Position numbers and translations under genes: made by a program
Source: Promethearchaeota archaeon Loki_b31
GTDB lineage: Archaea > Asgardarchaeota > Lokiarchaeia > Sigyniarchaeales > SOKP01
Reading direction: 5' to 3'
DNA length: 64,000 nt
Assembly: GCA_005222975.1 (NCBI GenBank)
Contig: NJBI01000002.1
Coordinates: 71,475 to 135,474, forward strand
The notes under the pieces: model-generated
Database searches by the model: none
What the model saw: only the letters and a program-made list of their open reading frames with translations
What the model was told of the DNA's origin: nothing
Part shown: in pieces, positions 34,157 through 43,861 of the stretch
How positions within the stretch are numbered: the first letter of the stretch is position 1
Layout of the letters: every line of letters begins with the position of its first letter

Positions 34157-36802
34157 TTAAGATATTGGTAGTTTTACGATAAATGTACTCCCCTTATTTC
34201 TTCCTTCTGATTCCGCTCGAATTTCACCTTCGTGCAAACCTACTATCTCTTTTGAGATATATAATCCTAACCCTGTGCCTTGGATGTCGATATATTCATA
34301 ACCCTCGCCATACCGTTCTATTTTACCAAACCTAGTGAATATGAAATCCATTTCCTCTTGGGTAAGACCTATCCCTGTATCGTTAATAGAGATTTCAGCC
34401 CAATTTCCCTTTTTTTTTAAAACTATCTTTATGTCCCCCTTTGGAGGTGTATTTTTTATAGCATTGGATAATAAATTCATGATTACTTGTTCAATCCTAA
34501 TTTTATCCATTTTCAAAAAAAGGCTCTCAGGAAGCGTAAGGTTTAAATTAGTTTTTCTCTCTCTTAATAAAAACATTAATTCTTTTGAGACATCCCTAAT
34601 AAGTTCGCTCAGATCGTTGGATTCTTTTTGTAATTTGAATTTACTATATTCAATTCTAGAGATATCAATTAAATTATCGACTAAATGTTTTAACCTTTTA
34701 CCCCCCTTTTCAATAAGTTCTATTAACTCTAATTCCTCTTTACTTAATTTTTCTCCATACAGGGTTAAAAGGAGTTCACAACCTCCACTAATTGAAACGA
34801 GAGGTGTTTTTAATTCGTGCGAAACTCTCGAAATTAAATTTTTTCTAAGCTGATCAAGTTCCTTCAATTTTTTTAATTCCTCATCAACAAGGAACTCAGC
34901 TTCTTTTTTTTTAGTGATATCTGTAAATAACGCTTGAACATATGTTTCATCCCTGATATTCATCAGAGCTGCTTGAAGATTTGCCCAAAAAATCGTCCCA
35001 TTCTTTCTTTGTATTTGAATATCTATTCGATGCATTTTTTCTCCTTTTACAAACTTTTTAAAAAGTGCGAAAATTGTTGATAAGTAATCTGGATGTATTA
35101 TTGAAAGATCCATAAACCCTTTACCAATTATTTCGTCTATCTTATAACCAAACATTACTTCGGTTGTTGGATTAGCATCTACAACGACACCTTGTGAATT
35201 AATTAATACTACTGAAAAAGGCGTGTTCTCATAGATGTTACGATATTTTCTCTCTGATTCTTTTAATTTTTGTTCGGTAATTTTTCGTTCCGTAATATTT
35301 ACAACAGTAACTAAGTTCGCATTTCGTCCTCTAAATAAAATTGTTTTAGAGAAATTATCTAACCAAATAATTTTTTTAGATTTATTTATTAGGCGATATT
35401 GATAATAATTTTTTATGTCATTTGAACCCAATTGTTTCTTTTTAGCTTTTTCTATTACCCAATCCCTATCATCTGGATGAATTACGCTTGCAAACCAACC
35501 AGGTTCCCAATTCTTTACTTCTTCGATTGTATATCCTATTAGATCAGCGAATTGTTTATTAATGTATTTAACCAAATCATCTTGTATTACACATATGCCC
35601 AATAACGATTGTTCGGCTATAGATCTGAATTTTTCTTCAGATTCTCTCAATTCTTGCTCCAAATTGTATTTTTCTGTAATGTCGATAAAAGTTCCTTCAA
35701 TACCAAACGGATTTCCTTCTTTATCAAGCATTAAATGAGAATTTAATTGGACAACAACTTTTTTACCTTCTTTAGTTAGGGATGGGCAGATGTAATTCTT
35801 AGCATAACTATCTTTTAATATCTGCTTTAAATAATTATCTCGATCTTCAGGAAATTGCCAAAAATCTGTTACTTTTTTGCCTATATGGCTCTCTGTTTGA
35901 TCATATTCTAAAATCTTATTATGGGCGGGATTATGGTTTATCATCGTTCCATCTAAAGCAACTTGATAAAAACCAACATCTAGATTATTAATCATATCGC
36001 GATATTTAAGTTCAGATTCCTTTAGTTTCTCTTCTGCCTTTTTTCTTTCCGTTATATCTTCTGTGCGCACAATTATTAAATCAGGATCGACGTAACCGTA
36101 ATTTACTAATAAATATTTCTCATCTTTCGAGAAACTATATCTATACTTCATTTCTCTCGTAATATGAGTTTTTTCATTCATACATAGATGTAAATCGTTC
36201 AAAATATCGGGACGATCTTTATACATTTCAAATGCGTTAGTTCCTAAAAAAGTTTCTACATTCCCTTGAGTTATTTTATCTGCGGCGTTATTAAAATCAA
36301 TGAAAACAAAATCATCTCCTATTTTTCTCCAAGTATAAGCAGGAATTGGACCTTCCTTAAATAAAGCTTTGAACATTTCTGCTGATTCTTTTAATTTTTG
36401 TGCTGTTTTTTTCCGTTTGGTGATGTTTTTGGCTATTCCTAATATTCCGTACATTCTACCATTTTTTTTTAAGGGAATGCCGTATGTTTCGATAAATATA
36501 TAATCGCCCGTTTTTGTTTTAAGCTTGTATTCCCTCTTGGCAGATTGTTTCCCCGTTTTTGTTATTTCCTTCAATGTGTTATATGCCTTAATCAAATTAT
36601 CTCTGTCAAGCAAATCAGTAAAAGTCAAATTAAGAATGTCCTTCCTTTCATAACCGAGAGAAATTAAAGTTAATTCATTTGCATCAAGAAAATTACCGTT
36701 TAAATCATTTACATAAATTAAATCCAAAGAGTGTTCAAATAAATCCTTGAATTTTTCTCTAACTTCTTCTTTATTATAATCTATATCCATATCCATCACC
36801 AA
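34157..36802 (-). CDS. cytoplasmic multi-PAS sensor histidine kinase
   Basis: About five PAS-like repeats ending in [DN]ITxxK; SHELKTPL H-box; NLLSNAIK, DTGIG, GTGLGL. Confidence 0.93.
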   Translation of the reverse strand: MVMDMDIDYNKEEVREKFKDLFEHSLDLIYVNDLNGNFLDANELTLISLGYERKDILNLTFTDLLDRDNLIKAYNTLKEITKTGKQSAKREYKLKTKTGDYIFIETYGIPLKKNGRMYGILGIAKNITKRKKTAQKLKESAEMFKALFKEGPIPAYTWRKIGDDFVFIDFNNAADKITQGNVETFLGTNAFEMYKDRPDILNDLHLCMNEKTHITREMKYRYSFSKDEKYLLVNYGYVDPDLIIVRTEDITERKKAEEKLKESELKYRDMINNLDVGFYQVALDGTMINHNPAHNKILEYDQTESHIGKKVTDFWQFPEDRDNYLKQILKDSYAKNYICPSLTKEGKKVVVQLNSHLMLDKEGNPFGIEGTFIDITEKYNLEQELRESEEKFRSIAEQSLLGICVIQDDLVKYINKQFADLIGYTIEEVKNWEPGWFASVIHPDDRDWVIEKAKKKQLGSNDIKNYYQYRLINKSKKIIWLDNFSKTILFRGRNANLVTVVNITERKITEQKLKESERKYRNIYENTPFSVVLINSQGVVVDANPTTEVMFGYKIDEIIGKGFMDLSIIHPDYLSTIFALFKKFVKGEKMHRIDIQIQRKNGTIFWANLQAALMNIRDETYVQALFTDITKKKEAEFLVDEELKKLKELDQLRKNLISRVSHELKTPLVSISGGCELLLTLYGEKLSKEELELIELIEKGGKRLKHLVDNLIDISRIEYSKFKLQKESNDLSELIRDVSKELMFLLRERKTNLNLTLPESLFLKMDKIRIEQVIMNLLSNAIKNTPPKGDIKIVLKKKGNWAEISINDTGIGLTQEEMDFIFTRFGKIERYGEGYEYIDIQGTGLGLYISKEIVGLHEGEIRAESEGRNKGSTFIVKLPIS

Positions 36803-37053
36803 AAGAACTGATATTTATTCGTAATTTATGTTATTTTCTAAAGAGATAATGAAATTGTTGAATATAAATTTCTTTCTTTTTCGAAAGACTAACATTTTTT
36901 TTTAATAATATTGTATGAGTATATTAATCGCCTTTTCTTAGATAATTTCTTTGAGTTCTATTGAATAGCCCTATTTTAATTAATCGGAAGAGTTTTATTT
37001 CAATAGTTATTAATTTTTATATTGGCTTTTATTCATTAATTTGTGTGATATCT

Positions 37054-37353
37054 ATGGCTAATACGAAAAAGGATTATCAAAAAATCTTAGGTTCCGTTCA
37101 AAAACCCGTAAAGGGAGAAGCTGGGAAAACGGGCACATGGAGCCCTAAAAAACCCGTAATTGATTTAGAAAAATGTATTCCGGCAAAATCGGGAAAACCT
37201 AGCTGTTTTAATTGTTGGTTATATTGTCCAGAAGCAGTAGTATCTAGGACTATTCCTCCTAAAATAGATTTAGAATATTGTAAAGGATGTGGAATTTGCA
37301 TGGAAGAATGTCCTGTAAATGCAATTAAAATGGTTGAGGTGAAAATTAAATGA
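37054..37353 (+). CDS. porD: 2-oxoacid:ferredoxin oxidoreductase delta subunit
   Basis: TGTW..KKP, CWLYCPE, YCKGCGICMEECP; start taken at MANTKK. Confidence 0.9.
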   Translation: MANTKKDYQKILGSVQKPVKGEAGKTGTWSPKKPVIDLEKCIPAKSGKPSCFNCWLYCPEAVVSRTIPPKIDLEYCKGCGICMEECPVNAIKMVEVKIK

Positions 37354-38645
37354 CAATTACAGAAAAGAAATCTGATAAAATTAGTCATAAAATTAAGATT
37401 TTGACAGGAAACCATGCAGCAGCTCAAGCTCTCAGGCAAGCTAAAGTTGGCGTCGTTGCAGCTTACCCAATAACCCCCCAAAGTCCGGTCGTTGAAAAAA
37501 TAGCTGAATTTATTTCGAAAGGCAAAATGAATACTCGTTTTGTTAAAGTGGAATCAGAACATTCCGCATTAGCGGTTTGTTGCGCGGCTTCGGCTACAGG
37601 GTCAAGAGTTGGCACGGCAACATCTTCTCATGGATTAATGTTGATGTATGAAATGTTACCGTGGGCTGCGGGCAATAGATTACCAATAATAATAAATTTG
37701 GCAACTAGAGCAACAGGAGCTCCTTGGTCAGTTTGGACGGATCACCAAGACTTTATTACTATGCGTGATGTTGGTTGGATTCAAATGTTTTGCATGGACA
37801 ATCAAGAAATTTACGATACAAATATTCAAGCTTTTAGAATTGCGGAAGATCCAAGAGTTTTTCTTCCAACAGTGGTAGCTTATGATGGTTATATATTATC
37901 CCATACTATGATGCCCGTAATCCTAGAAAAACAAGAAGATATTGATGATTTTCTACCTCCTCTAAAACATCATATAAATTTATCAGATATGTCTCAAGTG
38001 AAGGGTATAGATCCTGTCACCACGCCTCATTTAATAGATCGGGGTGAAGAAGGAATCGCTCCAGGGTATTTTGAGTATAGATATGCGATGCAAAAAGCTC
38101 TTGAAAATTCAATTGATATTATTGTTGAAGTTCATGACAAATTTGCTGATAAATTTGGGCGCTCTTACGGAAATGGAATTTACAAGACACACTTAACTGA
38201 AGACGCGGATACTATTATTTTTGCAATGGGTTCAGTAGCTTCTCAAGCTCGAAATGTGATTAAAAAACTTCGAAAAGACGGGTTAAAAATTGGTTTAGTG
38301 AGCTTGAAGCTATTTAGACCGTTTCCCGTCTCGTATCTAAGAGAGTTTTTCAAAAATAAAAAGCAAGTCGTCGTTTTTGATAGGGATATTGGTTATGGAT
38401 ACGAAGGCGTGTTATCATACGAGTTGAAAGCTGCTTTATATGGTTTGAAAAATAGCCCCTTTATTAAAGGATTTATAGTAGGGTTAGGGGGTAGAGATAT
38501 TACTGATCAACATATTATAAAGGGCGTGTATAAAGTAATTGAAGAATCCGAAATAGGGATAATAACACATAAAACTGATTTTATTGGTTTAAGATTGGAA
38601 GAGTTAGGTGATTATGACGAATCAGAATATTTCAAAGGAGGTTAA
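37350..38645 (+). CDS. porA: 2-oxoacid:ferredoxin oxidoreductase alpha subunit
   Basis: AYPITPQ, VESEHSA, TATSSHG, GLGGRD. Confidence 0.93.
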   Translation: MTITEKKSDKISHKIKILTGNHAAAQALRQAKVGVVAAYPITPQSPVVEKIAEFISKGKMNTRFVKVESEHSALAVCCAASATGSRVGTATSSHGLMLMYEMLPWAAGNRLPIIINLATRATGAPWSVWTDHQDFITMRDVGWIQMFCMDNQEIYDTNIQAFRIAEDPRVFLPTVVAYDGYILSHTMMPVILEKQEDIDDFLPPLKHHINLSDMSQVKGIDPVTTPHLIDRGEEGIAPGYFEYRYAMQKALENSIDIIVEVHDKFADKFGRSYGNGIYKTHLTEDADTIIFAMGSVASQARNVIKKLRKDGLKIGLVSLKLFRPFPVSYLREFFKNKKQVVVFDRDIGYGYEGVLSYELKAALYGLKNSPFIKGFIVGLGGRDITDQHIIKGVYKVIEESEIGIITHKTDFIGLRLEELGDYDESEYFKGG

Positions 38646-38651
38646 GATATA

Positions 38652-39551
38652 TTGGTTAAATTAATGGATATACCTGAAGAAGAATTTATTTACCCCGGTA
38701 CTAGAGCGTGCGCAGGATGCTCAATGGCGTTATTATATAGAATTGCTCTAAAAGCCCTTGGGCCAAAAACAATTATTACTGTACCAGCTTCGTGCCTAAC
38801 TGTTTTACACGGAATGCAAGGGTTTTGTACCACTAAAGTTTCTGTGCTTCATACTCCTTTTGCCACTACGGGCGCTTCTGCTTCTGGAATTGTAGCTTCA
38901 CTTGAAGATAAAGGATTAGCCAACGATGTTAATGTCGTTGCGTTTGCGGGGGATGGCGGAACTGTAGATATTGGAATTCAGAGTTTGAGCGGAGCGGTTG
39001 AGAGAGGGACCAACTTTATTTTTGCTTGTTATGATAACGAGGCGTATATGAATACAGGAGTTCAAAGAAGTGGAAGTACACCACCTGGTGCTTATAGCAC
39101 AACAACTCCTAATGGTAAAGTGGGGTATAAAAAAAATATGGCTAAAATTATGGAGGCACATGGCATCCCTTACGTTGCAACAGCAATTTCGTCTTATCCG
39201 CTTGATCTATACGATAAATTTAAGAACGCTCAAAATATTTTCGGTCCAAAATATATACACATTCTTGCTCCTTGCCCTCCGGGATGGGGATATAATCCAA
39301 AAGATTCAATTGAGATTGGGAGATTAGCTGTTCAAACGGGGTTCTGGCCGTTATATGAAGTAATTAACGGTAAGTTTATTTTATCAAAAGATAGTAAAAG
39401 ATTTTTAGACCCAACAAAACGCAAACCTATTGAGGAATATTTAAAAATCCAAAAAAGATTTAGAACCATCTCTGAGAGCCAAATTGAGAATTATAGACGA
39501 TATATTAGCGATCTATGGGAAGCGATTAAAGAAAGAATTGAAAAAAAATAA
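38652..39551 (+). CDS. porB: 2-oxoacid:ferredoxin oxidoreductase beta subunit
   Basis: ACAGC, GDGG...DNEAYMNTG TPP motif, PCPPGW. Confidence 0.93.
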   Translation: MVKLMDIPEEEFIYPGTRACAGCSMALLYRIALKALGPKTIITVPASCLTVLHGMQGFCTTKVSVLHTPFATTGASASGIVASLEDKGLANDVNVVAFAGDGGTVDIGIQSLSGAVERGTNFIFACYDNEAYMNTGVQRSGSTPPGAYSTTTPNGKVGYKKNMAKIMEAHGIPYVATAISSYPLDLYDKFKNAQNIFGPKYIHILAPCPPGWGYNPKDSIEIGRLAVQTGFWPLYEVINGKFILSKDSKRFLDPTKRKPIEEYLKIQKRFRTISESQIENYRRYISDLWEAIKERIEKK

Positions 39552-39671
39552 CTTATTTTCAACAGATTTTTTTTAGTTATTTTAATTTTTTCTAATTTTA
39601 TTATTTTAACAACATAGTTAAGATATAGAAAAAAATATAAATTATTTAGAGTTAAAAATTATTGATTATCT

Positions 39672-40457
39672 ATGCTGAAGACATACATTTTCAACGAACC
39701 TAATAAAAAATGGGTCGAGGAAAACACAAGCTTACTTTACCACGATTTATGCGCTATTTTGGATGAAGAGCGTAAAATTATCTATCTATGGAACGGGCCA
39801 AAAAGCTCTAAAGAAAGGCTTAATAGAGGATATAAATTGTTAGAAAATTTAATGTCCAACTATCCTCACATACATTTCCAATTATCTATTTTAAAGAAAG
39901 AAATTCCAGATTATATTCAAAATAAATTGGATTTAATGTTAAAAGAAATAAAACAAGAAGACGAAAGAGAGCACCAAAAGTTTACAAGATTTATTACAAT
40001 TAGGTTATATTTAATTTTTCTAGTAGTGTCTTTGATTTTACCGATATTATCTGCTTTAAATTTAGGTTCTTCTTTGTCTTGGACGAATGTTGGCAATAAT
40101 TTTGAGGTTAGTGCGGATTTGTACCATAATTGGCTCTATGTTTCGTATATATTAATAGTAATTTCTTTGATTTCTTTTGTTATTATTACAACGATAGGTA
40201 TCTTTGAGATCGAACATCAAGCTATTGTTTTTTCCTTATTAGGCGTGATAATTTGCAGCGGAATAGCGTTTTATCTACACCAAGGAATTTTCTTGTTTAT
40301 ATTTGAAGAAGGATCAACCACTTCAATTTATTATATCAAACAAAATGATATCTTTATATTTTTAATTGTAATTATTACAGGCATTATGATTTTTGAGTTA
40401 CCAAATGTGAAAAAACTCATCTCATTCATTATATCCTACAGAAAATATATTTTTTGA
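39672..40457 (+). CDS. gelsolin-like domain fused to four transmembrane helices
   Basis: LLYHDLCAILDEERKIIYLWNGPKSSKER resembles the gelsolin-repeat core; followed by four hydrophobic segments. Confidence 0.65.
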   Translation: MLKTYIFNEPNKKWVEENTSLLYHDLCAILDEERKIIYLWNGPKSSKERLNRGYKLLENLMSNYPHIHFQLSILKKEIPDYIQNKLDLMLKEIKQEDEREHQKFTRFITIRLYLIFLVVSLILPILSALNLGSSLSWTNVGNNFEVSADLYHNWLYVSYILIVISLISFVIITTIGIFEIEHQAIVFSLLGVIICSGIAFYLHQGIFLFIFEEGSTTSIYYIKQNDIFIFLIVIITGIMIFELPNVKKLISFIISYRKYIF

Positions 40458-40554
40458 TCTGTTAAGTTTCAATTTAAAAGAAATGTTTTTAAATATTAAC
40501 TTAATAATTTTTAGATAAGTGTCTTAAATTAAAAGAAATTATAAGATAATTGAT

Positions 40555-41442
40555 ATGGCTGAAGCAGCAAAATTACTTGAGAAAAAAAAGCTGGAAAAGG
40601 AAGATTTAAGAATTTTAATGGGAATTGAGATCGGAATGAAAAGATCTAAATATGTTACGATAAATAACATAAAATTCTACTCTAGGAATCCAATAGAAGA
40701 AACCTTATTTCGTCTTAAAAAAGTACATAAATTAGATTTAATAATAAGAGATTCTTCTAAAAATGATATAGCATATACCCTTAATTCTATTGGTTACGAT
40801 GCACTAGCTCTTCACACCTTGGTTGAGAGAGAGATAATTAGTAAGTTAGGACCTATAATAGGTAAAGGTAAAGAATCAGACGTCTATGGTTGTATGGACG
40901 ATAACGAAAATATTTTCGCTTTAAAAATTTATAGGATGGGAAGGACCAGTTTTAAAAACATTAAGATGTTAAGAAGCTTTCTTGGTGATCGAAAACATAT
41001 ATCTTGGTTGTATGTTAACAGACTTGCCGCTAAAAAAGAATTTGACGCTTTAAGTAAAATTTACAAACTTAAATTAGATACACCTAAACCAATAGGTTTT
41101 AATCGACATATAATAGTAATGTCATACTTAAGAGGAAAAGAATTAGCGTATTATCAAAATCTTAAAAATCCAAATAAGATTTTTAACAAGATCATCAAAC
41201 AAATTAAAGTAATTTATCAAAAAGCGAATATGATCCATGGAGATCTAGGAGAATTCAATATAGTAGTAGATAATAAAGGAAATATATTAATAATCGATTG
41301 GCTACAATGGATTCCGTCAGATCACCCAAACGCAAAATCAATTTTAGAAAGAGATATTGAAAATGTGTGTAACTTCTTTCAAAAGAAATACCATATAGAA
41401 AGCAACCCTGTTGAGATTATTCAATCATTTAAAAAAAAGTAA
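40555..41442 (+). CDS. rio2: RIO2 atypical Ser/Thr kinase
   Basis: N-terminal wHTH, GYDALAL, GKESDVY, GRTSF, IHGDLGEFN, IIDWLQ. Confidence 0.93.
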   Translation: MAEAAKLLEKKKLEKEDLRILMGIEIGMKRSKYVTINNIKFYSRNPIEETLFRLKKVHKLDLIIRDSSKNDIAYTLNSIGYDALALHTLVEREIISKLGPIIGKGKESDVYGCMDDNENIFALKIYRMGRTSFKNIKMLRSFLGDRKHISWLYVNRLAAKKEFDALSKIYKLKLDTPKPIGFNRHIIVMSYLRGKELAYYQNLKNPNKIFNKIIKQIKVIYQKANMIHGDLGEFNIVVDNKGNILIIDWLQWIPSDHPNAKSILERDIENVCNFFQKKYHIESNPVEIIQSFKKK

Positions 41443-41450
41443 ATTTAGAA

Positions 41451-42071
41451 TTAATGTTTATTTAGACTTCCTTGAATAATCACATCTTCTATATTCTCTA
41501 AAAACTCAGTCTTAAGGTTTATTGTATGTGTTTTTAAATATGCTATTAAATCATCTACTTTCAATTGTTTTCGTAGGATTGATAATCTTAAAAGCGAATC
41601 CTTTTGACCAACTCGAATAAATTCGCCCAAACCTTTCTTTATGACTGGTAAATTTTGGAGTGATGTGATTGAAAAAATTGCATTAAAGCTATCCTGTCTT
41701 AGCGGTAAGTTTTCGATATCTCCTAAAATTAGATTTATATCTTCAATATCTTTTAATTTTTTAGATTTGTCACAAAAGTTCATTAGCATTTTCCAAGAGA
41801 TATCTATTCCAATATATTTGACCTTCTTCTTTATATTATCGATATTTAAGTTAAAAACATATTCAATTAATAGGCCTGTACCACAACCAGCGTCTAGAAT
41901 GGTTTTATAATTTAAATTACAATTTCTAAAAAGAATTTTATACTTTTCTTTTTGGATTTTACTATATCTATTATCATAGAAGCTTGAGGTTGAATTATAT
42001 TTCTCAATAATATTTTTTTTCTTATCTAAATCTTTATTTAAAAGTTTCAAGAAAATTACCAAACAGATCAA
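41451..42071 (-). CDS. class I SAM-dependent methyltransferase
   Basis: ILDAGCGTG, GIDIS..ML, GDIENLP. Confidence 0.88.
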   Translation of the reverse strand: MICLVIFLKLLNKDLDKKKNIIEKYNSTSSFYDNRYSKIQKEKYKILFRNCNLNYKTILDAGCGTGLLIEYVFNLNIDNIKKKVKYIGIDISWKMLMNFCDKSKKLKDIEDINLILGDIENLPLRQDSFNAIFSITSLQNLPVIKKGLGEFIRVGQKDSLLRLSILRKQLKVDDLIAYLKTHTINLKTEFLENIEDVIIQGSLNKH

Positions 42072-42181
42072 AATATAAGAATAATTAATATCCGATAAAA
42101 AGGTTTTAATTCAAAAAAGTTTTTCTTTAAATTATCTTTTCAATAATTATATTATAAATGTTTTTTAGTAAAGGTTAAAAT

Positions 42182-42439
42182 ATGTCAAACCAAAATATTA
42201 GAAATAGGAACCCTCTAGCAATCCTTCAAAATGCCCAGAACAGTCAGATATTGCTCAGACTAAAAGATGGCACTGAATATAAAGGGCTCTTAAAAGAAAT
42301 TGATGCTTACATGAACATGATTCTAGAAGATGCGACTGAAATCATGGAGGGTAGTCCCGTAGCTAAATATAACGAAATATTTATTCGTGGTAATAATTTG
42401 CTTTTCATAAAACCGGACGCAAATCAGCTAAAAATATAA
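42182..42439 (+). CDS. Sm-like archaeal protein (Lsm/SmAP)
   Basis: PL..L, LKDG.EYKG.L...D.YMN..L, IFIRGNN. Confidence 0.93.
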   Translation: MSNQNIRNRNPLAILQNAQNSQILLRLKDGTEYKGLLKEIDAYMNMILEDATEIMEGSPVAKYNEIFIRGNNLLFIKPDANQLKI

Positions 42440-42964: not shown

Positions 42965-43861
42965 TTATTTGATTAATTTTGGTTTTACCAAATTATTTTT
43001 TATAACGGCGTAGGACGCTGGATTTGGTGAAAACTTACCTAGATAATTAGCAGAAGAAAATATAGATAACAACCGCTCGTTGAAAAACCATCTATAACCT
43101 TCAGGGAAAACTTCGTGCGCTCTAATTAAATATTTTAAACTATACTCTTTCATAAAATCATTAAAAACATCTTCTCCAAAAGATTTAATTCCAGGACCTC
43201 TAAAACTTTCTGAGAATCCTTTTAAGTCGGATTTAGGGTCATTCCACATAATTTGTACTAGGCTTTTTGCTATAGTTTTGAATACAGAAACAATATCTCT
43301 TGGTTTTAATCCTCTCAACTTCCTTAAAATCGCGATATCTTCGGGAATCCCGCCATGCAGACATAATATGCCTTTATTTACTAAAGCACAAAAGGGAAGT
43401 ACATTGTATACGGCTAAAACTTCGTCAAATTTTTTTTGATCATTAAATCTGTATTTAAATTCTTGGAAGAATCCATAAGCCTTGTTCATTTCCAAAGTTT
43501 CGTGATTCCCTTTTAATAGATAGTATCTATTTGGATATCTAATTTTTAACGCAAGAACCAAAATTAAACATTCTAACTGATTTGTACCCCGATCAACGAT
43601 ATCACCTAGAAAAATTACAAACTCAGGTTTTTTTTCATCTATTATTTCAATCAATCTCTGTAAAGTTTCTAAATTTCCATGAATATCTCCAATAACCCAT
43701 ACTTCGCTTTCGGAATCATCGAGGTTAAACTCTAATAACAATTTTTCTTCTTTAAAAATCTCTTCTGCTTTTCTTAAAATCTGTGAAATATAATTGAAAT
43801 CTAATTTAGAGATTTTATATGGTTCCTTTATAATGTTGTTTAAAAACGGTTTATCTATCAT
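42965..43861 (-). CDS. PPP-family Ser/Thr protein phosphatase
   Basis: GDIHG, GDIVDRG, GNHE, HGGI, WNDP, RAHE, FSSANY. Confidence 0.93.
   Translation of the reverse strand: MIDKPFLNNIIKEPYKISKLDFNYISQILRKAEEIFKEEKLLLEFNLDDSESEVWVIGDIHGNLETLQRLIEIIDEKKPEFVIFLGDIVDRGTNQLECLILVLALKIRYPNRYYLLKGNHETLEMNKAYGFFQEFKYRFNDQKKFDEVLAVYNVLPFCALVNKGILCLHGGIPEDIAILRKLRGLKPRDIVSVFKTIAKSLVQIMWNDPKSDLKGFSESFRGPGIKSFGEDVFNDFMKEYSLKYLIRAHEVFPEGYRWFFNERLLSIFSSANYLGKFSPNPASYAVIKNNLVKPKLIK

What the first reader, a model, noticed from the sequence alone, without database searches (positions are those of the whole stretch)
39672..40457. Gelsolin-like domain fused to a four-pass membrane domain: candidate actin-membrane anchor
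Seen: about 90 soluble N-terminal residues containing L..HDLCAILDEERKIIYLWNGPKSSKER, a charged helical linker, then four hydrophobic helices with two longer loops. There is no signal peptide, so both termini are probably cytoplasmic. Known: gelsolin repeats have the core L...D.FILD....I[YF].W.G..S...E[RK]; Asgard gelsolins regulate actin, and the characterised ones I know of are soluble. Inference: an integral-membrane gelsolin-domain protein could tether or regulate Lokiactin at the membrane, for example in cell protrusions.
Basis: partly seen in the sequence, partly recalled or inferred. Interest (0 to 1): 0.8.

Follow-up and report, generated by a model that had tools for sequence, protein, structure and literature searches.

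The report
Membrane-embedded gelsolin-domain protein of Lokiarchaeia
This Asgard-archaeal gene joins a gelsolin-type domain (the fold that regulates actin) to a four-helix membrane module, so it is a testable but unproven candidate for attaching the archaeal actin skeleton to the cell membrane.

Summary
Window 39672-40457 (+) encodes a 261-aa protein with an N-terminal gelsolin-homology (GH) domain, a charged helical stalk and four transmembrane helices.

The GH call is now tested. A family profile hits Thorarchaeota ProGel first among solved structures (E 1.1e-4). In the AlphaFold model (pLDDT 89), all 50 listed Foldseek PDB matches are gelsolin-family, and ProGel 7c2f_B is best (E 1.9e-5).

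The membrane module models very confidently (pLDDT 93.5) but matches no known membrane-protein family above helical-bundle background.

Full-length relatives occur only in one Lokiarchaeial order (57/68 and 6/7 genomes in its two families). They are always GH + 4TM, and there are at least four subfamilies. Both cultured species, L. ossiferum and P. syntrophicum, carry a member of a different subfamily.

Two features temper the tether idea. The exposed face of the long GH helix, the usual actin-gripping element, is among the most variable parts of the GH domain. The most conserved long stretch is an extracellular loop.

The papers I searched describe only soluble Asgard gelsolins.

This scan has already found the same family on other genomes.

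The parts
39672..40457 (+). Whole gene: GH-4TM protein, 261 codons plus stop
   Evidence: ORF list and translation. More than 100 homologues of the same length. Single copy in its own genome.
39672..39905 (+). Gelsolin-homology core (residues 1-78): strands 2-8, 13-16, 26-31 and 36-41, long helix 47-62, strand 70-73
   Evidence: AF2 model with pLDDT 80-91 in this part. Foldseek best match 7c2f_B ProGel, E 1.9e-5, TM by target 0.68, and all 50 listed matches are gelsolin family. Profile against PDB gives E 1.1e-4 to ProGel. Pfam Gelsolin is sub-threshold, 16.4 against 21 bits. D25 and G42 are the only invariant columns of the whole superfamily.
39906..39980 (+). Second GH helix running on into a charged K/E-rich stalk (residues 79-103). 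P79 is invariant. pLDDT drops at 99-101.
   Evidence: This is the most variable long segment apart from the short ECL1 loop (mean entropy 2.04 against 2.10).
39981..40079 (+). TM helix 1 (residues 104-136), preceded by the conserved basic K-F-(S/T)-R-F-x-T-I-R
40080..40112 (+). Outer loop 1 (residues 137-147), a beta hairpin. W137 is nearly invariant.
40113..40280 (+). TM helices 2 and 3 (residues 148-179 and 182-203), joined by a two-residue acidic cytoplasmic turn. W154 and E179 are invariant within the subfamily.
40281..40340 (+). Outer loop 2 (residues 204-223) with motif Q-G-I-F-L-F-x-F...Y-x-I. It is the most conserved long stretch of the protein (mean entropy 1.05).
   Evidence: The G-x-F-L-F-x-F and Y-x-I motifs are also kept in the distant subfamilies.
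40341..40454 (+). TM helix 4 (residues 224-243), then the conserved P244-N245 and a basic C-terminal helix conserved to the last residue (...Y-R-K-F/Y-I-F)
39620..39645 (+). AT-rich TATA-like stretch 27-52 nt before the ATG. An oligo-T run at 39567-39574 follows the upstream POR-beta gene. Together these suggest the gene has its own promoter (weak inference in a 30% GC genome).
   Evidence: Sequence read directly. Intergenic gaps are 120 nt upstream and 97 nt downstream.

Best explanation
Shown: the gene encodes a conserved integral membrane protein of one Lokiarchaeial order. A single ProGel-like gelsolin-homology head of about 80 residues has no conserved calcium site. It sits on the cytoplasmic side on a charged helical stalk of about 25 residues. 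The stalk is followed by an up-down four-helix transmembrane bundle whose outer face carries a small three-stranded sheet and a highly conserved aromatic loop. Inferred: the head binds Lokiactin monomers or filaments weakly and without calcium control, as ProGel does with rabbit actin. Permanent anchoring in the membrane would raise its local concentration, and possible oligomerisation of the bundle would add avidity. This would turn weak binding into a useful link, so that filaments are held, capped or nucleated at the inner face of the membrane, for example in the actin-filled protrusions of these cells. The conserved membrane and outer parts suggest the anchor is more than passive; it may mediate self-association or contact with an outer partner.
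For: The GH fold and homology are supported at several levels.
- A profile of 32 family members hits only gelsolin-family chains at the top of the PDB list: ProGel E 1.1e-4, then villin, gelsolin, CapG and adseverin.
- All 50 listed Foldseek matches of the full model are gelsolin, villin, severin, fragmin or Asgard Gel domains. ProGel/actin complex chain 7c2f_B is best (87 columns of 88 residues, TM 0.68) and no Sec23/24 chain appears.
- The gelsolin hallmark residues D25, W40 and G42 are kept. D25 and G42 are the only invariant columns across all subfamilies.

Membrane insertion and N-in/C-in topology are supported.

The fusion is stable. Every full-length relative found has GH + 4TM, and the TM module was not found without GH in 301 genomes of the phylum.

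The genome encodes Lokiactin (441.7 bits to Pfam Actin) and four soluble GH proteins, so the presumed partner system is present.

ProGel, the nearest characterised relative, sits on actin at the G1/cofilin site despite weak affinity (PMC7444086).
Against: No binding evidence of any kind exists for this family.
- On the long helix (47-62), the conserved positions are K/R49, L50, K/R52, G53, L57 and L60, mostly the face that packs on the sheet.
- The outward positions 47, 48, 51, 54, 55, 58 and 59 have entropy 2.0-2.7 bits, among the highest in the GH domain.
- The position that aligns by my own register with gelsolin Ile103 is a variable polar residue (K55). The register is inferred, not computed.
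- Gelsolin-like domains that do not bind actin exist, for example Sec23a (noted in PMC7444086).
- ProGel itself binds rabbit actin with Kd about 337 uM.
- The strongest constraint lies in the GPKS loop, the outer loop 2 and the C-terminal helix, not on the classical actin face.
- Gene neighbours are housekeeping genes (2-oxoacid:ferredoxin oxidoreductase, RIO2 kinase, methyltransferase, LSm). The synteny decays with phylogenetic distance, so context gives no functional support.
- The family is confined to one order although Lokiactin is found Asgard-wide, so it cannot be the general membrane link.
Confidence: 0.5

Rival explanations
1. The GH head is a general protein-binding module that no longer (or never) binds actin, as in the Sec23/24 gelsolin-like domain. 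The protein then serves another membrane process, such as trafficking, signalling or scaffolding of another cytoplasmic partner.
For: The outward face of the long helix is variable, while the GPKS loop, W14/E16-E17 and H24-D25 are conserved, which points to a different conserved surface. There is no calcium site. The nearest relative, ProGel, has only marginal actin affinity, and Sec23a is cited as a non-actin GH domain (PMC7444086). No actin-related gene lies in the conserved neighbourhood.
Against: All 50 listed structural matches and all top sequence matches are actin-binding gelsolin-family domains. No Sec23/24 or other non-actin relative appears among them. The Asgard GH proteins tested so far act on actin (PMC7444086, PMC9433394), and five GH proteins co-precipitated with Lokiactin in L. 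ossiferum (preprint 10.1101/2025.11.30.690169).
Confidence: 0.3
2. The four-helix membrane module is the working part, for example a small channel, a receptor for an outer ligand or a subunit of a larger membrane complex. The GH head only regulates it or reports the state of the cytoskeleton to it.
For: The membrane domain is almost as conserved as the head (mean majority frequency 0.59 against 0.64). Its outer loop 2 is the best-conserved long stretch. Polar and aromatic residues are invariant within the subfamily (W154, E179, G205, F209, F211, Y256). The TM model is very confident, with pLDDT 93.5 and pTM 0.86. A passive anchor would not need this.
Against: No similarity to any channel, transporter or receptor family stands above helical-bundle background. 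The best VIA Z of 14.2 is to de novo bundles, the best Foldseek E is 0.23, and Atlas TM-scores are below 0.5. No Pfam or NCBIfam family matches the TM part. E179 is not kept in the other subfamilies. Four helices with no conserved intramembrane polar network make a poor pore unless the protein oligomerises, which was not tested.
Confidence: 0.15
3. Not a real gene, or a chance resemblance to gelsolin.
For: Pfam Gelsolin is below its gathering score, 16.4 against 21 bits.
Against: There are hundreds of conserved homologues with a conserved start and end. Independent profile and fold evidence supports the GH domain. A 261-codon open frame is unlikely by chance in 30% GC DNA.
Confidence: 0.01

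Closest known systems
Thorarchaeota ProGel (single-domain gelsolin/cofilin prototype, PDB 7C2F chain B; Akil et al. 2020, PMC7444086)
   Same: Single GH domain of about 90 residues. It is the best sequence-profile and fold match. It shares the Y-L-W-x-G-x-K signature and has no conserved calcium-binding glutamate on the long helix.
   Different: ProGel is a free soluble protein of about 90-100 aa. Here the domain is fused through a charged helix to a four-pass membrane module. Identity is only about 20%. Actin binding is shown for ProGel (weak) and not for this protein.
Asgard 1DGelX / GelX (GH domain plus 'unknown domain X'; PMC7444086; preprint 10.1101/2025.11.30.690169)
   Same: One GH domain followed by a C-terminal extension of unknown function, which is the loose definition of the class. 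The counts of '1DGelX' reported for Loki genomes (PMC9433394) could conceivably include such proteins. I could not check, because the supplementary figure is not held.
   Different: Domain X of the characterised Thor and L. ossiferum proteins is described as a predicted coiled coil or a disordered domain of a soluble protein. Here the extension is a hydrophobic four-helix transmembrane bundle. The words 'transmembrane' and 'membrane-anchored' are not applied to gelsolins in any of the papers read.
Eukaryotic gelsolin/villin superfamily (gelsolin, villin, CapG, adseverin, severin, supervillin)
   Same: Same domain fold and hallmark residues. From general knowledge, some members act at membranes through PIP2 binding or peripheral association.
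   Different: Eukaryotic members have 3-6 repeats and calcium sites. To my knowledge (not tested here) none is an integral membrane protein.
Four-pass membrane scaffolds with small outer beta structure (claudin/TARP, connexin, cornichon)
   Same: Four TM helices, N-in/C-in, with short beta strands in the outer loops.
   Different: There is no significant fold match. Connexin-26 scores Foldseek E 0.23 with rmsd above 11 A, and cornichon 9z6u_E scores Z 9.3, within helical-bundle background. There is no sequence-family match.

Membership tests
Gelsolin-homology (gelsolin/cofilin core) domain | Fold: central mixed beta sheet packed between a long helix and a shorter second helix | tested here: met
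   The AF2 model has strands 2-8, 13-16, 26-31, 36-41 and 70-73 and helices 47-62 and 80-100. All 50 listed Foldseek PDB matches are gelsolin family, and the best is 7c2f_B with E 1.9e-5 and TM 0.68.
Gelsolin-homology (gelsolin/cofilin core) domain | Hallmark residues Asp...Trp-x-Gly (the 'DWG' motif of PMC7444086; my reading of which residues are meant is inferred) | tested here: met
   D25 is invariant, W40 nearly invariant and G42 invariant in the subfamily. D25 and G42 are the only invariant columns across all subfamilies.
Gelsolin-homology (gelsolin/cofilin core) domain | Pfam PF00626 at or above the gathering score | tested here: not met
   16.4 bits against a cut-off of 21 (E 0.008). 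10 of 38 superfamily members match at E below 0.1, best 0.00099. The family profile against PDB is significant, E 1.1e-4.
Calcium-regulated gelsolins (G1-type, 2DGel) | Type II calcium site: Asp before strand 3 plus Glu early in the long helix | tested here: not met
   The Asp (D25) is kept. The helix positions 48/49 are E/D/A/K/T/Q and K/R respectively across the family. The same situation is reported for ProGel. The residue register is inferred by hand from the W-x-G anchor.
Actin-binding gelsolin/cofilin proteins | Binds G- or F-actin | not testable with these tools
   The co-fold of the head with this genome's Lokiactin was not run by the tool. No RNA, proteome or interaction data could be tied to the gene.
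Asgard ProGel | Stand-alone soluble single GH domain (~90-100 aa) | tested here: not met
   The protein is 261 aa with four TM helices.
Asgard 1DGelX | GH domain followed by domain X (predicted coiled coil or disordered, soluble) | tested here: not met
   The extension is a confident TM bundle with pLDDT 93.5. X is described as coiled coil or disordered.
Claudin/PMP22, MARVEL, tetraspanin, connexin | Specific four-TM fold of the family | tested here: inconclusive
   No such family appears above helical-bundle background in Foldseek PDB, VIA wide, VIA second look or Atlas.

The most novel reading that the evidence does not exclude
The protein is a true transmembrane coupler. Its highly conserved outer loop engages a surface or partner-cell component, or its own copies on a neighbouring membrane, while the cytoplasmic gelsolin head engages Lokiactin. 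That would be a minimal archaeal analogue of an adhesion-to-actin link, used to build or steer the actin-filled protrusions and crawling motility of Lokiarchaeia.
Probability: 0.12. Interest if true: 0.9.

Novelty: new variant of a known kind. Interest (0 to 1): 0.62.

Why it matters
Cultured Lokiarchaeia form actin-filled protrusions and crawl (preprint 10.1101/2025.11.30.690169), yet the papers I searched name no protein that joins Lokiactin to the membrane. The co-immunoprecipitation in that preprint is admittedly biased against membrane proteins.

A gelsolin-type domain built into an integral membrane protein is the most direct sequence-level candidate for such a link. To my knowledge eukaryotes do not use this design.

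It is readily testable. The head is a small soluble domain, Lokiactin can be purified, and both cultured species carry a homologue (NEF87_002464 and DSAG12_00505).

If the head does not bind actin, the family still shows a eukaryote-type cytoskeletal domain recruited to a new membrane role in the closest archaeal relatives of eukaryotes.

Tried and rejected
- **Co-folding with Lokiactin.** I submitted the head (alignment A3) with this genome's Lokiactin (alignment A4) plus ATP. 
- **L. ossiferum proteome and Co-IP tables.** The homologue UYP46179.1 should correspond to one of GNAMCCOK_02482-02486 by interpolating known ID pairs. The mapping is ambiguous: 02483 is present at low level, and 02486 is listed at 54.82, which I took to be kDa and too large for a 283-aa protein. 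No conclusion was drawn.
- **Fold identity of the TM module.** Foldseek PDB gave a best E of 0.23 (connexin-26, rmsd above 11 A). VIA-align on all 48,161 representatives gave a best Z of 14.2, to de novo four-helix bundles, which is background for helical bundles. The second look gave cytochrome oxidase subunit III Z ~10.5 and cornichon Z 9.3. ESM Atlas by shape gave TM below 0.5, and Atlas by features returned only its own cluster at 0.85. No claudin, MARVEL or tetraspanin link emerged.
- **Family libraries for the TM part.** Pfam on 38 members and NCBIfam gave only scattered single chance hits.
- **Identity with 1DGelX.** Rejected on the published description of X as coiled coil or disordered. 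The supplementary figure listing Loki 1DGelX sequences is not held.
- **Operon logic.** The block POR-delta/alpha/beta, GH-4TM, RIO2, methyltransferase, LSm is strictly syntenic in 29 of 29 close genomes. It is rearranged or lost in the sister family, so I read it as inherited gene order, not functional coupling.
- **The search for related loci with the wide alignment A5.** This failed because no conserved stretch was available. With A1 it returned only uncultured MAGs.

Full report
**Observation**

The quoted motif is at residues 21-49. The N-terminus is polar, so there is no signal peptide. The window is about 30% GC, where long open frames are rare by chance.

More than 100 homologues were found with E values down to 1e-148. 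Nearly all are 259-264 aa, and where a source names them they are 'hypothetical protein' from Lokiarchaeota/Promethearchaeota MAGs. Both the start (M-L-K/R-T-Y/F-I-F/Y) and the last residues (Y-R-K-F/Y-I-F) are conserved. The gene is real.

**The N-terminal domain is a gelsolin-homology domain**

- Pfam Gelsolin matches below threshold: E 0.008, 16.4 bits against a cut-off of 21, residues 15-60.
- A profile of 32 family members searched against all PDB sequences puts Thorarchaeota ProGel first (7c2f_B, E 1.1e-4). Villin, gelsolin, CapG, adseverin and Loki 2DGel follow.
- The AlphaFold2 model built on that alignment is confident (mean pLDDT 89.1). It shows the gelsolin order of elements: strands 2-8, 13-16, 26-31 and 36-41, long helix 47-62, strand 70-73 and second helix from 80.
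- All 50 listed Foldseek PDB matches are gelsolin-family domains. The best is the ProGel chain of the ProGel/actin crystal: E 1.9e-5, 87 aligned columns of 88 residues, TM 0.68 by target. No Sec23/24 chain is among them.
- The gelsolin hallmark residues are kept. D25 and G42 are invariant and W40 nearly so. D25 and G42 are the only invariant columns when all distant subfamilies are aligned.
- The glutamate that completes the type II calcium site in gelsolin G1 has no conserved counterpart. Akil et al. report the same for ProGel (PMC7444086). The residue register here is my own hand alignment from the W-x-G anchor.

**The C-terminal half is a four-helix membrane module of no recognisable family**

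The full model gives helices 107-136, 148-179, 182-203 and 224-260. A beta hairpin at 138-147 and a strand at 219-223 sit on the same side.

Folded alone on 39 sequences, the module reaches pLDDT 93.5 and pTM 0.86. The lower pTM of the full model (0.60), together with the confidence dip at residues 99-101, suggests a flexible joint between head and membrane part.

Charge counts over the family give mean K+R of 4.7 before TM1 and 3.25 after TM4, against 0.7, 0.4 and 0.7 in the three loops. The head and the C-terminus are therefore predicted to be cytoplasmic, and the loops 137-147 and 204-223 external.

Fold searches found only generic four-helix bundles:
- VIA-align over 48,161 representatives gave a best Z of 14.2, to de novo designed bundles. 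The tool itself rates this as background for helical bundles.
- Foldseek gave a best E of 0.23 (connexin-26, rmsd above 11 A).
- The second look gave cytochrome oxidase subunit III about Z 10.5 and cornichon Z 9.3.
- Atlas TM-scores were below 0.5.
- Pfam and NCBIfam gave nothing for this part.

The claudin, MARVEL or tetraspanin idea is therefore neither supported nor excluded.

**Where the constraint lies**

Per-column entropy over 32 sequences shows which parts are conserved.

The most conserved parts are:
- the G-P-K-S loop before the long helix (0.35 bits);
- outer loop 2 with Q-G-I-F-L-F-x-F...Y-x-I (1.05 bits);
- the beta strands of the head (about 1.15 bits);
- the C-terminal cytoplasmic helix (1.31 bits).

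On the long helix, the conserved positions are K/R49, L50, K/R52, G53, L57 and L60. From their spacing, most of them form the face packed on the sheet. Positions 47, 48, 51, 54, 55, 58 and 59, which should point outward, have 2.0-2.7 bits.

In gelsolin G1 and cofilin, this helix is the main actin-gripping element (general knowledge; PMC7444086). So the classical interface is not under family-wide constraint.

That does not exclude binding. ProGel also binds loosely, shifted by one helical turn, with Kd about 337 uM. It does keep the actin reading at the level of inference.

**Distribution and evolution**

The window lies in a MAG of 3.5 Mb in 99 contigs, 92% complete, and the gene is single-copy there. 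The genome encodes Lokiactin (441.7 bits) on the same contig about 41 kb upstream, two further actin-family proteins and four soluble GH proteins without TM segments.

In 301 genomes sampled across the phylum, full-length matches occur only in this genome's own family (57 of 68) and its sister family of the same order (6 of 7). Elsewhere only the GH part matches small ProGel-like ORFs. The TM module was never found on its own.

An exhaustive HMMER search shows further relatives of 270-320 aa with 20-30% identity. They have the same GH + 4TM plan and often an added charged C-terminal tail.

A quick maximum-likelihood tree was built from 58 sequences (SH-aLRT support only, midpoint root; the careful search did not finish). 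It recovers the window's subfamily as one clade with support 99, and shows at least three other subfamilies.

One of these contains NEF87_002464 of Candidatus Lokiarchaeum ossiferum and DSAG12_00505 of Promethearchaeum syntrophicum. The former aligns with the window protein over both domains at 23% identity, E 3e-16. The cultured species thus carry the design, but not this subfamily.

**Context**

The gene sits between a 2-oxoacid:ferredoxin oxidoreductase operon (delta, alpha and beta subunits) and a RIO2 kinase gene, followed by a methyltransferase and an LSm gene. The order is identical in 29 of 29 loci from the two closest genera and in three or four further genera. It is rearranged in one genus of the sister family and absent in two others.

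The intergenic gaps are 120 and 97 nt. An oligo-T run follows the upstream gene and an AT-rich TATA-like stretch precedes the ATG. I read this as an independently transcribed gene in an inherited gene order, with no functional message.

Over the same genome pairs the GH-4TM protein is less conserved (44-65% identity) than its neighbours (70-87%).

**Literature**

Akil et al. 2020 define ProGel, 1DGelX and 2DGel. X is a predicted coiled coil, and all proteins were handled as soluble. The 2025 preprint on L. ossiferum describes X as disordered. It lists five GH proteins co-precipitating with Lokiactin and notes a bias against membrane proteins.

None of the papers found with gelsolin + transmembrane or membrane-anchored + Asgard or archaea describes a membrane-integral gelsolin. 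The loose class '1DGelX' could have absorbed such sequences in gene counts for Loki genomes. I could not check the supplementary figure.

Earlier notes of this scan report the same family in several other genomes, with the same closest relative. My tests agree with them. They add the subfamily structure and the location of the constraint, and they confirm that the cultured species hold a homologue.

**Verdict**

The architecture is established. The actin-tether function is a reasonable, testable inference at about even odds. The main rival is a GH head that has taken another partner. The strongly conserved outer loop and C-terminal helix argue that the membrane part does more than anchor.

Noticed in passing
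L050 1826-3118 (-) (= L130; record NJBF01000078.1, 'Heimdallarchaeota archaeon B3_Heim', 8144 bp): A 430-codon open frame holds the back half of the GH domain (from M-Y-I-W-N-G-P-K-S-S), the stalk and the start of TM1. It then runs in frame into an EamA/DMT-type transporter, a tandem paralogue of the next ORF (868-1842). A threonyl-tRNA-synthetase-like scrap lies at its start. It looks like a rearranged remnant or chimera of the GH-4TM gene, 42-43% identical to the window protein.
   Followed up: partly
Alignment A5 (distant subfamilies, e.g. P0138, P0146, P0148, P0153): The cytoplasmic C-tails of one distant subfamily share a short motif [KR]-P-[ST]-[IL]-L-[RQ]-D, in about 10 sequences. It faintly resembles the Asgard WH2-like L-R-R-V / L-K-D-V actin-binding motif. 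Another subfamily has T-x-P-I-x-[WF]-K-E-W instead. Neither was tested.
   Followed up: no
G000:C75:68705-69817 (L002 1474-2619), 1.7 kb before the window start: The Lokiactin gene (381 aa, 441.7 bits to Pfam Actin) lies on the same contig, about 41 kb upstream of the GH-4TM gene. That is too far to count as linkage.
   Followed up: partly
window 36961-42439: There is a conserved gene block: POR delta/alpha/beta, GH-4TM, RIO2 kinase, SAM methyltransferase (minus strand), LSm. The order is identical in 29 of 29 loci of the two closest genera. The GH-4TM gene is the fastest-evolving member of the block.
   Followed up: yes
G000 contigs C25:10021-10521, C2:7818-8006, C71:10798-11004, C64:16835-17038: Four further gelsolin-domain proteins are encoded in the same genome: a 343-aa ORF with two GH matches, and ORFs of 199, 307 and 373 aa with one GH match each. 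None has a hydrophobic segment.
   Followed up: partly
window 42965-43861 (-) and 34157-36802 (-): Near the gene lie a PPP-type Ser/Thr phosphatase (Metallophos, E 4e-32, with a faint STPPase_N match) and, judging by eye from the translation and not scanned against any library, an 881-aa histidine kinase with several PAS-like repeats. Neither was examined further.
   Followed up: no
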